64,000 nucleotides of DNA from Octopus vulgaris (lineage: Eukaryota), in contig OX597821.1 in the NCBI GenBank assembly GCA_951406725.2, positions 43,586,001 through 43,650,000 on the forward strand. Direction: 5' to 3'. Of the stretch, positions 2,153 through 58,568 are shown in pieces. Numbering within the stretch: the first letter of the stretch is position 1; the number at the start of each line of letters is the position of its first letter. The notes beneath the pieces were generated by a model that saw nothing but the letters and a program-made list of their open reading frames with translations, made no database searches and had not been told where the DNA came from. Both the position numbers and the translations under genes were made by a program.

Positions 2153-2294
2153 AATTTGAATTTAATGTATGATAGTGTCATATAACCCATGCTAGCATGG
2201 AAAACGGATGCTAAACGATGATGATGATGATGATGATATATATATATATATATACATATATATACATATATATACATATATATATATATACATA

Positions 2295-2840
2295 CAGAAT
2301 GTGGTGAACAAACAGTCGTCTAAATTACACAAAAATGAAAATAACACTGACATTTCATCTTAACAGATATAATTACCAAAATTACATAAAAATATCATGA
2401 ATACTAAAGAGTAAATTTATTCAGTAAAATTGCCATTGACCCAGGGCAGCACTACCTCCTCCAGGCACTTGATGTAGGCCGCTGTGTTGAGTCTGAGGCT
2501 GTGTGGGAAGATGAATGGAGGCATAACGTCACCATCAGTAGTGATCACTCCAAATACCATGATGTTGACCAGGTGTTTGAGTTTTATCACTCTTGGTACA
2601 TGCACTGACCTTAGATTGACATTCTGAAATGTTGATATTGGAGCTTCTGGTGTGAATGCCAAGCGGTACAGCATGTCATTTCCAAATTTCTGGCAGAGTG
2701 AATTGTATCATGGTGCTGTTTTTCTCACAGATGGTGCCCAACTGACCCTACTATACTGTATAGTTGACAAAATCCAAAACAAACAATGTTCATGTGCAAA
2801 ATTAAAAATATAAGATGGCGATAATTTACCCATCGTGCCC

Positions 2841-2842
<2 letters not shown>
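2295..2842 (-). mobile_element. DD37D/maT-type Tc1-mariner relic, internally deleted
   Basis: Translates to KHLVNIMVFGVITTDGDVMPPFIF..LNTAAYIKCLEEVVLPWV. CAG..CTG termini form imperfect TIRs. Paralogues at 52436 and 63077. Confidence 0.8.
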
Positions 2843-2871
<29 letters not shown>

Positions 2872-2876
2872 GTGCA

Positions 2877-2932
<56 letters not shown>

Positions 2933-2934
<2 letters not shown>

Positions 2935-3145
2935 CTTTCAAAATGTGACCGTGTGTATACCGTTGGCGATTTTTTTCCCTCGTCTTCCTTTCTTTGGATC
3001 GTTCCTTTTCCCATGTTTCTGACGAAGAGCTCTGCTCGAAACGTTAAACCTTCCTTCTTTCCTTCTTTTCTGAGTGTCCAATAATACTATACTTGTTCCA
3101 CGTCCTCGAGTTGTGTTTTCTCTTTGTTTTCATGTTTGGATTAAC

Positions 3146-3146
<1 letters not shown>
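2933..3146 (+). mobile_element. Short HHR-bearing non-autonomous element (PLE pLTR-like) in (TA)n
   Basis: About 210 bp, non-coding, flanked on both sides by (TA)n, with a central HHR. Same architecture as 58605-58796. Confidence 0.65.
3015..3049 (+). ncRNA. Minimal type I hammerhead ribozyme
   Basis: GTTT-CTGACGA-a-GAGC-tct-GCTC-GAAACGTT-AAAC: stem I GTTT/AAAC, 4-bp stem II, ACGT palindromic stem III, GUU triplet. Confidence 0.75.
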
Positions 3147-3225
<79 letters not shown>

Positions 3226-3299
3226 CAACACACACACACACAACACACACACACACAACACACACAACACACACATACACATATAAGTGCCATATTGAT

Positions 3300-3500
3300 T
3301 TCACCAACAGTGGTCCATTCTTGCTACTGACTATAAAGCCTGATATCTCACTGTCCACTAGACAATGACCACCTTTGAAGACACTTGCAGGACCATCCTT
3401 GCAGACAAGAGAAAAAGGAGGGAAAACAAGGACACTACAACCAAGCCTGGTCAAACTCTCTTCCCATGCACATGTTTGTGTCTTCTTCGCTTGTATTTTT
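3300..3500 (+). mobile_element. RTE LINE C-terminal fragment
   Basis: FEDTCRTILADKRKRRENKD..FPCTC resembles the RTE/BovB-type ORF end. Confidence 0.45.
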
Positions 3501-3934
3501 TTTGTGAATTCTCCCCCTATATATTTAGTTTACAGTTCTGTTGTAGCAAGATAAACAAAAAAAGCACTCCATCCTGTGAGAGATAAGTATCATTTAATAA
3601 TACACAATTTACAAAAGAGCTACTAAAAGATTCATGATTTAGAGATACAATAAATTGGCAGATGTGTGTAACATGCCATGTGTCTCCGAGCAATCTTTCA
3701 GGCTCAATGCATATTGCTTGATGTATTTAAAAACCAGCATGATAGTCTATGAGAAGTCATGAGGAAAAAATAAGAAGAAAAAGGCAAAGATGATTGGTGC
3801 CAAAAGTAGAATGAGAAGAAAGAAAAGAATAGTAAAAAGAGCCAATATCTTTGTCCTCCTTGTAAAATCATAATTAATCTAGTTGATGTAGAAGAATATA
3901 ACAAAAAGAAGACCAAAGTCTGTGAGATAGCCAA

Positions 3935-4280
3935 TTAATCTGGAGTAGGTAATGTCCTCCATTTTGAAAGGAGCTTGTCCATATGCTTGTATTTGCTAAA
4001 AATTTTGGATCTGCAATTAAGTAGTGTGGTGAAATTCTTGAAACTAAAAAGAATGTGTGATCTTTTAGCTACATATAACTTGCATCTCTTTGATCCATTT
4101 ATACATGGCATAGATTTCTCCACAATTCTCTATTTGATTGTATGTGGTGTGCAATCCTATACATGGCTAGCCACATTTATTATTATCAATGTCCCTTGGT
4201 TTTACCTCTTGCATCCCTTCTGTTTCACTGGGAGCTTGTCATTCATTCAAGGAAGTAATACACACAAATATATATTACCC
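3935..4280 (-). mobile_element. Penelope-like GIY-YIG endonuclease C-terminal relic
   Basis: EKSMPCINGSKRCKLYVAKRSHILF..LLNCRSKIFSKYKH matches the PLE terminal pattern CxLC..EK..IL..LLNxRxE. Confidence 0.65.
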
Positions 4281-4294
4281 CTGTCATCAACTTC

Positions 4295-5400
4295 CAAATC
4301 AGGGGTTGACAGGAAATTGGCCAGTAATTACATTTACCAGGGTTCTTTTAGTAAAGAACCATTATCCCTGTGGTCATCCACTTTGGGATTTCCACCACAT
4401 TGTTGATCATTTAATCCATTTGCACAGCTATTCTTTTGTGTAATACTGAGAAATTTTTTAGCAAGTACCCTTGCACCCCATCAAAACTTAGACATTTCCA
4501 GTTTGGAACCTTTGTTGTCTGCTCTCTTCTTGGTCACCATTTCAGTTGTTATCCTTATATTATTCTGTTTTACTCCATTTTCTCTGATCTTAATTACTTC
4601 AACCATTTAGCATCTTTCTGATAATTTCTTCCATTATCCTAGATGTTATTCCAAAATCTCCTACTTTCTTCAGCATCAGGTTTCTTACTGTTGTTAATTG
4701 TTCTGTTCAGCTGTTGATAAACCCTTTACTGCTCCTTGATTTTTGTAGCTTTATCCTGTTGTCTTTGTTTCAGCTCTACATTTGACCCATTTACTTGATC
4801 CTAAATCTGTCTTCTAGATCCTGCTATTTCTCCTTCCTGATTTCACTTTCTTTCCAGGGTGTTGATATGTTTTTGTAGTTCATTCATTGATTGCTTTATC
4901 CTTCACTTCCACCAAGGCTCTTTCACTACGTGTCCTCTTTGATGGTTTGGTTCAGACCTACTTTCCTTCCTGTATAGATGATACAAGCTTTAATCAATCT
5001 AACTGTTCCAGTCATATTATCTGTCTTAATATTTTCAGTATTTTATTTACCTTTGGGGTCCACTCCTTGAGCAAAATTCTATTCACTTTCTCAAATCCAT
5101 TTACTTTCACATTCAGACTTTCCTTAATGATACCAGTAATGTCTTTGATCATTCCTCTGTCTTCATCACTCAGTCTCTCAACATTCTCAAAACTTAAACC
5201 AGCTTCATTCTCCTGGACAACTTCATTCAATACAATCTCATAAACATTCTCTGCAATCACTTCATTTTCACTAAATGTGTTTTCAATCATCACCCACTTC
5301 ATAATCTCATCAAATTCTACTACCTGGTCACAAAATCTCTCTTCTGTAACTTCACAAGCCCTGCATCTCCATACAGATGTCATACATTCTCTTCCTATAT
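4295..5400 (-). mobile_element. R4/Dong-like (RLE-class) LINE relic, pre-RT and RT N-terminus
   Basis: Minus strand gives VPNWKCLSFDGVQGYLLKNFSVLH (cf. PNWKAPGxDGVQGYWLK) and IPKWMTTG..NYWPISC, with many stops. Confidence 0.65.
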
Positions 5401-30061: not shown

Positions 30062-30720
30062 GAAGACCTGGATGGAAAGCATTTGGCATACTAAAAAGAG
30101 ACTATGCATGGGTATGTTGCCTGGAAGCTTGAAGAAGATAGTAGAATTGACATGAAGCGCAGCCTCTCTTGGACACAAGACCACTACATCGCACTTTGCA
30201 GGATATGTGTTTGCAGTCCAGGAACGGCAGATTGCCACAAACTACCAGGTGAACAAGAAAACCAGTGATACTCTTGTAATTCCAAAGTGCAACTGCATGT
30301 GTAGGCTATGTCATGTTTCTGTAGAAGACATCATGCATGTGATTAGCATTTGCCCTAAAATGTCATCATGGTACTACCTCCCTACGTGGCATGATGTTGC
30401 TAAAACAATTTACAATGCCATCTGCAAAAAAGACCGTCCTGAAATAAATTTAGAAAATCCCTCTGTTATGGAATATGTTCATAAACACCAACTCAAGAAA
30501 TACTGGTGAAATATTCTCTTCAATACCTCTGTCAAATGTAAACATAAACAGACCGGATATTGTTGTTTGGGACAGAGGAGCAAAGGTCTGTACCATCATA
30601 GAGGTCAGCTGCCCTGCGGATATAAATATCTCTTTGACAATCAAAAAAATAAAAAGGATATCTATGGATAACTGCTTTGAAACCTTCAGCTTCTACATTC
30701 AGACTATGAATTTACAGTAA
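30062..30720 (+). mobile_element. RLE-class (R4/Dong/NeSL-like) LINE C-terminal relic
   Basis: FAVQERQIAT, zinc knuckle CRLCHVSVEDIMHVISICP, WHD (RHD motif), and endonuclease RPDIVVWD..IIEVSCP. Confidence 0.8.
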
Positions 30721-30726
30721 AGATTG

Positions 30727-31240
30727 TTTGCCAGCATAACATGGCAGTCCTCGTTTACGACTAATGTTGTTGTAATTTGGCCCCAGGAGACTTCGTCTCC
30801 AGCTGGTTATACAACACGATCTGTGTCCTTATATTTTCAAGCAAGGAAATGTAGCACCCCAACTCAGCACAAAATATCTGTGTATCATGATTTCTGGGTT
30901 ATTTCTCTTCATCATAGAAGTGGTGCTGCCAAATTCCCATTTGAAATATATAGTTTTCAAAGTGACACATCTTGTCACTGATTTATAAATTAGAAAATTA
31001 CTATTACAATTCTCACATTGTGAGAATTAAAAATTACTATTCACACATTGTGAGAATTAAAAATAGTAATTTTCTAATTTATAAATCAGTGACTGGTTGT
31101 CACTTTGAAAACTATACACTTTGAATGGGAATTTGGCAGTGCCACCTCTAGCCGAGCAATTATTCTGTGCTGATGAAAAGAAATAACCCAGAAATCGTGA
31201 TACTCAGATATTGTTTTGACAGATATTGTTTTGAATTGAG
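30727..31240. mobile_element. HHR-bearing element with an inverted duplication (arms ~30861-31015 and ~31050-31240) plus a structured tail
   Basis: The arms are reverse complements. Plus-strand HHR at 31164-31208: TCTGTG-CTGATGA..GAAA-TCGTGA-TA-CTCAGA. The minus arm keeps GAAATCATGATACACAGA. Confidence 0.75.
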
Positions 31241-31356
31241 TGTATATATATATACACACACACACACATGAACATTCTTCTATTTTATTCCTTATAAACT
31301 GTGAATTTTATCCCTTACAAATTGTAAATTTTCCCTGTCTAAAATATTCATACCTT

Positions 31357-31432
31357 GTCTCTGATGACAGAGTACTGAGTGTGTGAACATGCTAACTTAC
31401 CACATGGGTTATCCCAGAAACGGCTGTAAGAC
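31357..31432 (+). ncRNA. Type I hammerhead ribozyme with extended stem II, in a ~250-bp element (31270-31520)
   Basis: GTCT-CTGATGA..GAAAC-GGCT-GTA-AGAC. The family copy at 43799-43874 has palindromic ACAGCTGT. Confidence 0.7.
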
Positions 31433-31523
31433 TCCAAATTCATCTTACCCTAATTAAGTTATTCTAAATGACTTGAGCTACTCATTCTGCCTTGGCTTTT
31501 GATTTTTCCTCTAATATAATATA

Positions 31524-43709: not shown

Positions 43710-43960
43710 TAAATATGGGAAAAAAGACAACAAAAACCAAGGTAGGATGTATATATCACAAGTCATATAGAATAATTTTATTTTAGGGTAAATTTGAAGT
43801 CTTACAGCTGTTTCTGGGATATCCCAAGTGATAGGCTAGCATGTCTGTACACTGGGTATTCTGTCATTAGAGACAGGGTGAGTATGTATGAAAGTTCTAG
43901 GCAGGGAAATTCAGAGTTTATAAGGAATAAAATAGAAGAATAAAGAGTAAGATAGATAGA
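43710..43960 (-). mobile_element. HHR element of the 31270-31520 family (HHR at 43799-43874)
   Basis: Minus strand GTCT-CTaATGA..GAAAC-AGCT-GTA-AGAC; core G5 is mutated. Confidence 0.7.
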
Positions 43961-44041: not shown

Positions 44042-44547
44042 AGGATGACCTCCCTTTGCAAATACCGATAGGGCACAGAAAGTATGCCTATAGCCAGCTG
44101 GAGGAGATGTTCTCCTGGGGCTACAAGCTACAGTAACACCCACTCTTAGTGGTTAGCCATATTGAGATGGCAAATATACCTCACATTGTCGTGCAGTTAC
44201 TGTTTATACCTTGTTCAGAGATTTATTATTGCTTGTATACACTTTTTCAAGATCAGTGATGAAAAGTTACTGGAAAAAGGATATTAATATTTGCATTGGG
44301 AACTCTTTTAATTGAAAACCAGTGATTGTCGTACGCTGATGATGGGTCAAGACCCAGAAACTGCAGTCCTTGCGTATCACTTAGGTTGACAAGGGAAGGA
44401 TGACCTCCCTTTGCAAATACCGATAGGGCACAGAAAGTGTGCCTATAGCCAGCTGGAGGAGATGTTCTCCTGGAACCATATTGAGATGGCAAATATACCT
44501 CACATTGTCGTGCAGTTACTGTTTATACCTCGTTCAGAGATTTATTA
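44042..44547 (+). mobile_element. Retrozyme/pLTR-like partial tandem repeat with a 355-bp period and a central HHR
   Basis: Direct repeats at 44042-44228 and 44397-44547; the second is 36 nt shorter. Confidence 0.8.
44321..44381 (+). ncRNA. Type I hammerhead ribozyme, near intact
   Basis: CTGATGA-TGGGTC-aa-GACCCA-GAAAC-TGCA-GTC. Stem I CGTACG/CTTGCG pairs at 5 of 6 positions, then an internal loop and distal AGTGAT/ATCACT. Confidence 0.85.
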
Positions 44548-58232: not shown

Positions 58233-58568
58233 GTACTTTTCTAGTACCTTATAATAAAGACTGATTTCTAGATAACCCATGATTAGGTTAGCAAAGGAAT
58301 GGGTCATTCTTGTACCCATTGCAAAGTAGTTATTCTCCAAGATGAATTTTAGCCCTTCTATTACAAATTCTTTTTGATGCGATTGGCATAATTCTCTGGC
58401 CAGAATTGAATTGCCTCTATTCCTAGACTGTGAGGGATATTAGAATAGAGGTTGACTACATTGAAGGATACTAGTAGGGTGTTTTTGTTTATTGTTTTAG
58501 GGAGGTGATTGAGCATGTCCAAGTCGTCCCTTACGTAGCTTTTGATATGCTTGAGGAATGGTTTTAAG

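What the first reader, a model, noticed from the sequence alone, without database searches (positions are those of the whole stretch)
44068..44174. Conserved four-hairpin motif downstream of the HHR, shared by two diverged families
Seen: 44068-44174(+) and 30727-30830(-) share four hairpins in the same order. A: GGCACA/TGTGCC (copy at 44427) vs GACAC/GTGTT. B: TATARCCAGCT-GGAG..CTCC-TGGGGC with different inner stems. A TACARYAACA linker follows. C: CCACT/AGTGG vs AGTC/GACT. D: GCCA..TGGC-AAA. Stems are kept while their sequences and loops differ. In both elements the motif begins ~50-60 nt 3' of the hammerhead cleavage site on the same strand, although the two HHRs differ in sequence. Inference: this is a selected RNA structure, possibly an RT-binding or priming signal or a second catalytic module. 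I do not recognise it as a named motif. A weaker match (gccagct..ggg..ccctggg) lies at 56-79.
Basis: partly seen in the sequence, partly recalled or inferred. Interest (0 to 1): 0.75.

Follow-up and report, generated by a model that had tools for sequence, protein, structure and literature searches.

The report
Conserved landing pad in octopus retrozymes
A clan of small non-coding jumping repeats with a self-cutting RNA motif shares a predicted RNA fold, kept by paired mutations across many diverged families, and their genomic copies end at two fixed points of that fold, so it likely tells a borrowed Penelope-type reverse transcriptase where to start copying.

Summary
The hairpins are real but are part of a larger fold. 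44068-44174(+) and 30727-30830(-) belong to two ~355-nt hammerhead repeats (non-LTR retrozymes) that are homologous over their whole unit, so they are relatives, not independent carriers of a module. At least ten families carry the domain (10,466 pattern hits vs 9 control). Across nine family consensuses 13 of 31 pairs changed on both sides (neutral-descent simulation: mean 2.5, 0 of 500 reach 13). 171 of 193 insertion 3' ends fall just after hairpin D or just after a fifth hairpin, and 45 of 46 two-armed insertions use one of each, the footprint that autonomous Penelope-like elements show in this genome. Best reading: a selected RNA domain that positions a Penelope-type RT in trans (about 0.55). 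Against: no autonomous element examined, nor a 495-nt retrozyme with the same footprint, carries it; expression and binding are untested. The 56-79 match fails.

The parts
44042..44547 (+). Family F1 retrozyme insertion: 5'-truncated, 1.4 units of a 355-nt repeat; 3' end at site 2 (3 nt after the E box)
   Evidence: first unit 337 of 353 aligned positions identical to the family consensus
44071..44089 (+). Hairpin A (this copy has one C-A mismatch where the family has C-G)
44091..44123 (+). Hairpin B: outer stem, AGCU/UGG internal loop, inner stem 44100-44105/44110-44115
   Evidence: loop kept in 9 of 9 consensuses (AGCU was part of the anchor used to collect them) but changed on the 5' side in family F7
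44130..44137 (+).
   Evidence: 4 of 8 pairs change on both sides
44140..44152 (+). Hairpin C (variable: sequence turns over between families, weak in F1b, not evident in F7)
44156..44171 (+). Hairpin D, GCCA/UGGC in 9 of 9 consensuses
44174..44192 (+). Site 1: window (D+3 to D+21) holding 75 of 193 insertion 3' ends; inferred first RT start
44196..44203 (+). 3' strand of predicted helix P3
44210..44225 (+). Hairpin E and the conserved GAGAYUUA box
44225..44250 (+). Site 2: window (E box +0 to +25) holding 96 of 193 insertion 3' ends; inferred second RT start
44254..44272 (+).
44322..44380 (+). Type I hammerhead-like motif: stem I 44322-44335/44369-44380, CUGAUGA 44336-44342, stem II, GAAA, palindromic loop 3; predicted cut after 44368
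   Evidence: cleavage untested; below Rfam gathering
44423..44547 (+). Second motif copy, 59 nt after the cut, with a 36-nt internal deletion
30716..31025 (-). Family F2 retrozyme, main arm; 3' end at site 1 (D+14)
   Evidence: 278 of 308 aligned positions identical to consensus
30727..30830 (-). Motif copy A-D in F2; lacks the P3 partner strand and E because the insertion ends at 30716
30883..30915 (-). F2 hammerhead core; the stem I 5' strand is lost to a 20-nt deletion
31041..31219 (+). Inverted arm of the F2 insertion with a degenerate hammerhead at about 31165-31209

Best explanation
The motif is the front part of a predicted RNA domain, conserved with paired changes in a clan of ~355-nt hammerhead retrozymes, and it likely captures or positions a Penelope-type reverse transcriptase so that copying starts at two fixed points of the RNA. 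Shown from sequence: the repeats are tandem, ORF-less units of 344-365 nt with a type I hammerhead-like motif; helices A, B, P3 and D covary between families; copies end at two windows, after D (inside the P3 loop) and after E; two-armed insertions use one window per arm; autonomous RT + GIY-YIG elements in the genome leave the same footprint. Inferred: the unit is transcribed, cut by the hammerhead and perhaps circularised, with an extended stem I forming a rod and this branched domain at its far end; a Penelope-type protein made from another locus binds the domain, nicks AT-rich DNA and primes one target strand at site 1 and the other at site 2, then copies round the unit, giving partial tandems and inverted arms. 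Whether the domain touches the RT directly or through a host factor is open.
For: Covariation: 13 of 31 pairs change on both sides across 9 family consensuses, 91% of cells paired; neutral evolution from a fully paired ancestor along the same tree gives mean 2.5 (maximum 8), 0 of 500 reaching either value, under both rate models. On 19 real copies 12 of 29 pairs, 90% paired, slid controls 32-46%. The motif is 65% identical among four deep lineages, against 41-43% for the rod strands and 62% for the hammerhead core. Ends: 171 of 193 outer 3' ends from 135 loci in two windows covering 12.6% of the unit; 63 of 67 in the pattern-sampled families; 45 of 46 two-armed insertions with both ends in a window have one at each. 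Held-out families: F5 19 of 25; F7, not in the model, scores 89 bits and its two arms end at site 1 and site 2. Autonomous elements show two ends about 30 nt apart, one per arm in 6 of 6 two-armed cases, at TA repeats. The unit's longest TA run (about D+107) is an end in only 3 of 193 cases. In vitro precedent: an anole Poseidon RT starts at two internal sites in an AC-rich stem-loop downstream of the hammerhead, matching genomic ends, and needs RNA beyond them (PMC11167929).
Against: No autonomous element examined carries the motif: the only model hits in 35 loci (32 of them GIY-YIG or PLE loci) were separate retrozyme copies, and none reached 10 bits in 16 further PLE loci; only some six PLE families were seen. 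One 495-nt retrozyme insertion with a two-armed layout lacks the motif (best 5.3 bits), so the footprint does not need this fold. Site 1 is also among the most unpaired stretches in 6 of 8 units, so plain accessibility may contribute; site 2 is not notably unpaired. Hairpin G and the rod are also predicted across families (34 of 62 pairs over the whole unit change on both sides), so the whole RNA fold is conserved, not only this part. The simulation leaves out CpG decay and template-switch repair of hairpins. The two windows were drawn. Sense versus antisense consensus energies differ only modestly (-61.8 vs -54.6). Transcription, cleavage and binding were not shown.
Confidence: 0.55

Rival explanations
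1. The domain is selected for the life of the RNA itself (stable circle, ligation, export, a host RNA-binding protein, or keeping the hammerhead switched off), and the RT merely starts at nearby open AU-rich stretches.
For: The whole unit covaries. Autonomous PLEs and a 495-nt retrozyme show two fixed ends without this motif. Site 1 is among the top unpaired windows in 6 of 8 units. Animal retrozyme RNAs accumulate as self-paired circles (PMC7229834, passages).
Against: The most constrained letters (GCCA/UGGC of D, the GAGAYUUA box) directly precede the two end windows; site 2 is not especially unpaired; the longest TA run is almost never an end, though it is predicted paired in F1 and F2.
Confidence: 0.27
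2. The hairpins are inherited from a common ancestor and kept without selection, or polished by template-switch repair of quasi-palindromes and CpG decay.
For: The families are homologous over the whole unit, and motif identity tracks the rest (rho 0.67). Some double changes in helix A are CA/TG swaps that CpG decay could mimic.
Against: 0 of 500 neutral simulations reach the observed pairing or double changes. The long-range helix P3, whose strands are about 60 nt apart, also covaries (4 of 8 pairs), and B keeps an internal loop that hairpin repair would tend to erase.
Confidence: 0.07
3. The signal acts as DNA (single-stranded cDNA or the inserted copy), guiding the GIY-YIG nuclease or second-strand priming, rather than as RNA.
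For: The D. virilis Penelope nuclease was reported to need the 'tail' sequence in DNA (as cited in PMC11167929). Sense and antisense folds have similar energies.
Against: The motif is on the hammerhead strand in all units rebuilt; G-U pairs are tolerated at several positions; the anole RT starts on RNA at the equivalent ends.
Confidence: 0.06
4. The motif is a second ribozyme, an internal Pol III promoter, or a captured SINE/LINE tail.
For: Conserved internal loop in B; its 5' strand loosely recalls a tRNA D-arm (recalled, from no call).
Against: No Rfam match at gathering in the window or at E<=1 over the motif in 5 loci; no tRNA; no A or B box in 8 of 8 units; the B loop differs in F7; copies run through the motif into the next unit and have two ends, not one tailed end.
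Confidence: 0.05

Closest known systems
Metazoan non-LTR retrozymes (PMC7229834, passages seen; bioRxiv 10.64898/2026.07.22.740005, first fifth and passages seen)
   Same: ORF-less tandem units of about 350 nt, low GC, one type I hammerhead per unit, thousands of dispersed copies, co-existing with PLEs; mussel units are 350-390 bp.
   Different: The passages seen give single-sequence minimum-energy folds and call sequences species-specific; they describe no covarying domain shared between families and no link to fixed insertion ends. Circular RNA and cleavage are shown there, not here. Their supplements were not opened and may show comparable folds.
Poseidon element PAc of the green anole: internal RT initiation (PMC11167929, parts 1-2 of 4 read)
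   Same: Two RT starts downstream of the hammerhead in an AC-rich stem-loop, equal to the genomic ends; AT-rich targets; both target strands extended.
   Different: PAc is autonomous and its signal lies in the ORF, 85-92 nt after the cut; here the element is non-coding, the sites lie about 170 and 225 nt after the cut and 45-60 nt apart, beside a multi-helix domain with covariation.
Endonuclease-positive Penelope-like elements: pLTR, inverted 5' copy and optional 30-40 bp tail (PMC8557442 and PMC3846280, passages seen)
   Same: 5' truncation, partial tandems, inverted arms, a tail on one arm only, microsatellite targets; autonomous elements of this genome show it too.
   Different: No ORF; a longer tail; the autonomous 3' regions seen are short, AT-rich and lack the motif.
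SINE RNA domains that recruit a LINE enzyme in trans, such as LINE-derived 3' stem-loops or the Alu domain (recalled, not tested)
   Same: A non-coding parasite keeps a structured domain next to the place where a borrowed RT starts.
   Different: No Pol III boxes, no single tailed 3' end, hammerhead-bearing tandem unit, no shared tail found with a partner.

Membership tests
Non-LTR retrozyme | Tandem units of 170-400 nt without ORF | tested here: met
   Periods mostly 353-365 nt; long ORFs in the F1/F2 loci were simple-repeat or other-element frames
Non-LTR retrozyme | Type I hammerhead motif in each unit | tested here: met
   Core, stems I and II in 8 of 8 rebuilt units, with CUGAUGA, CUGAAGA, UUGACGA, UUGAUAA and CCGAUGA variants; below Rfam gathering in the window
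Non-LTR retrozyme | Self-cleavage and circular RNA in vivo | not testable with these tools
   Only assembled contigs of runs guessed to be RNA were available
PLE-mobilised element | 5' truncation, inverted arm, tail on one arm only, AT-rich target | tested here: met
   45 of 46 two-armed insertions; flanks 78% AT, 67 of 171 with a TA run within 20 nt, but only 2 of 55 in F2
PLE-mobilised element | Homology of the 3' region to the pLTR of an autonomous partner | tested here: inconclusive
   None in about six PLE families seen; only 150 of 6,136 GIY-YIG candidates and 61 of 27,474 protein candidates were scored
Known Rfam family or small ribozyme | Match to a curated covariance model | tested here: not met
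   0 hits at gathering; 82 weak hits in 5 loci, none over the motif
tRNA-derived SINE | tRNA-like head with A and B boxes | tested here: not met
tRNA-derived SINE | Match to named cephalopod SINE domains or LINE tails | not testable with these tools
   No Dfam or Repbase library on hand

The most novel reading that the evidence does not exclude
A clan of retrozymes has evolved its own structured RNA domain, absent from the autonomous Penelope elements, that grabs a telomerase-related RT in trans and presents two single-stranded start points to the two ends of a cut target: a natural, covariation-defined template module for an RT class whose RNA recognition is unknown, usable to direct RNA-templated insertion.
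Probability: 0.3. Interest if true: 0.8.

Novelty: new variant of a known kind. Interest (0 to 1): 0.55.

Why it matters
How Penelope-type RTs, the sister group of telomerase, pick their RNA and their start sites is unresolved, and the enzyme that spreads animal retrozymes is only proposed. A 160-nt domain with compensatory changes in nine families and two start sites mapped from about 190 insertion ends gives a ready mutational design for an in vitro assay of the anole type. If it is only a folding scaffold, it is still an unlisted structured RNA present in over ten thousand copies.

Tried and rejected
Rfam: nothing over the motif. tRNA and Pol III boxes: none. Match at 56-79: rejected. Autonomous partner: GIY-YIG and protein searches found intact RT + GIY-YIG ORFs of 775-784 aa in several families, none with the motif. 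F1 beside PLE fragments in L020 looked like co-copying but sits inside an older broken element; not used. Outside the genome: a motif pattern gave 97 metagenome stretches, of which the 80 fetched gave 0 model hits. Expression: no RNA holder listed; four contig sets laid were uninformative. No solved structure matched the PLE protein. A genome-wide search with the covariance model was not available for this genome, so the family list is a lower bound. RNAalifold on 19 raw copies found only A, outer B and D (13 pairs); P3, inner B and E appear with family consensuses. C and E were left out of the pair counts because their register differs between families. Alignment A2 misaligned F2 and was dropped. 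Paper searches for a description of this fold listed none.

Full report
Setting. The window lies in a 2.8-Gb, microsatellite-rich animal genome; earlier scan notes call it octopus, which I did not test. The two cited stretches lie in two repeats, F1 (44042-44547, +) and F2 (30716-31219), with 3,360 and 2,867 first-look candidates in the genome. Copies occur as partial tandems of about 355 nt and as inverted pairs.

Observation. Helices A-D are present as described. The 44068 copy has no upstream hammerhead because the insertion starts at 44042; the hammerhead at 44322-44380 precedes the second copy by 59 nt, and that copy has a 36-nt deletion. The F2 hammerhead has lost 20 nt of stem I. The match at 56-79 fails.

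A clan, not a pair. Pattern and DNA searches gave further families: F4 (2,041 exact hits, control 6), F1b with F2b and others (516, control 0), F5, smaller groups and F7. A pattern for hairpin D plus the downstream box hits 10,466 places against 9 for the reversed control; a few of these are fragments carried in other repeats. Eight rebuilt units are 344-364 nt, each with a type I hammerhead-like core 50-59 nt before helix A. They align end to end; the motif is the best kept part (65% among F1, F2, F4b, F5; hammerhead core 62%; rod strands 41-43%), and its identity tracks that of the rest of the unit (rho 0.67, 28 pairs). The motif is therefore inherited with the unit. Because the families were collected with motif patterns, related units that lost it would have been missed.

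Fold. The extended hammerhead stem I forms a rod whose far end carries this domain, and another hairpin G follows. Of 31 pairs in A, B, P3 and D taken from the F1 fold, 13 change on both sides across nine consensuses and 91% of cells pair; unconstrained evolution from a fully paired ancestor on the inferred tree, scaled to the same stem divergence, gave 2.5 on average and never reached either value in 500 runs under each of two rate models. On 19 real copies the count is 12 of 29; on 48 model-aligned matches from a separate sample, which lean towards the model, 19 of 29. D is invariant, so it shows sequence constraint rather than covariation. C is weak in F1b and not evident in F7. R-scape was not available, and CpG decay and hairpin repair were not modelled.

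Insertion ends. In 135 loci of seven families, 171 of 193 outer 3' ends fall in D+3 to +21 (75) or E box +0 to +25 (96), windows covering 12.6% of the unit; 22 lie elsewhere. F1, F2 and F5 loci were the best-scoring copies, which favours long ones, but the pattern-sampled F1b, F4a and F4b give 63 of 67. Of 57 two-armed insertions, 45 have one end in each window, 1 has both at site 2 and 11 have one end elsewhere. The windows were set; F5 (19 of 25) and F7 (2 of 2) were not used to set them. In the window F2 ends at D+14 and F1 three bases after the E box. Ends are blurred by a few bases of TA microhomology.

Who copies them. The genome holds intact ORFs with RT and C-terminal GIY-YIG domains. 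Their copies have two ends about 30 nt apart at TA repeats, one per arm in 6 of 6 two-armed cases, the tail pattern described for PLEs (PMC8557442, PMC3846280; passages). In vitro, the anole Poseidon RT starts at two internal sites matching the genomic ends and extends both target strands (PMC11167929). Reading sites 1 and 2 as RT starts rests on this precedent. The autonomous 3' regions I saw do not carry the motif, and neither does one 495-nt retrozyme insertion, although each of its ends follows a predicted hairpin by roughly 14-15 nt or lies at its base. The partner may be among the PLE families not reached; a published octopus annotation lists 30 recently active Penelope families (PMC13282606, passages).

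Mechanism. Most likely the domain lets a non-coding RNA capture a Penelope-type RT in trans and fixes the two starts (0.55). The main rival is a fold selected for the RNA's own life, with starts set by accessibility (0.27): site 1 is among the most open windows in 6 of 8 units, but site 2 is not, and the longest TA run is rarely used. Descent alone, a DNA-level signal, a second ribozyme, a Pol III promoter or a SINE tail are each unlikely.

Known and new. The elements are non-LTR retrozymes by organisation (PMC7229834; bioRxiv 10.64898/2026.07.22.740005; PMC4209133, first quarter read). The two-end footprint was noted before by this scan in other families of this genome, so that part is not new here. 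Look-ups by sequence, by words and near the window returned no note on the fold, Rfam lacks it, and six paper searches listed no description; supplements of the retrozyme and Poseidon papers were not seen and may bear on this. Verdict: a real, selected, apparently undescribed structured domain of a known kind of element, with a testable link to RT initiation; interest 0.55.

Noticed in passing
window 43731-43945(-) and 31274-31501(+): A third hammerhead family (F3), about 215-230 nt, with a ~35-nt insert between the core and stem II, lies on the opposite strand upstream of both motif elements; the two copies are 74% identical. It lacks the motif.
   Followed up: partly
window 58233-58567(-): Fragment of a PLE reverse transcriptase, 76% identical over 72 aa to the 781-aa family.
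   Followed up: no
L355 and L361, about 1500-1570: An inverted P3-C-D piece joined to the E box is embedded in another, apparently unrelated repeat, and the same string recurs about ten times among the first 100 hits: a captured fragment spreading with a different element.
   Followed up: partly
L005:1778-2648(-): An array of about 18 copies of a 50-nt unit holding only the F1 hammerhead core and stem II, upstream of a normal F1 insertion; one search also lists a 119-nt sub-unit array of the D-E region at G000:C1:11168332-11169115.
   Followed up: no
L123-L152 (family F4): The first pair of B's inner stem occurs as A-U, U.U and U-A in different subfamilies, a compensatory change with its intermediate.
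   Followed up: partly
L111:906-1982 and 2245-4587; L070, L074, L079: The 781-aa PLE family has an upstream 359-aa frame without Pfam match, and its hammerhead shares the UUGAUAA core and CAUG loop with family F4a.
   Followed up: no
L020:724-2099: An F1 array sits at the inversion point of an older, broken two-armed PLE.
   Followed up: partly
L233:2040-3386: The 495-nt retrozyme has a GCC-loop-GGC hairpin about 14 nt before its first end, echoing hairpin D without model-level similarity.
   Followed up: partly
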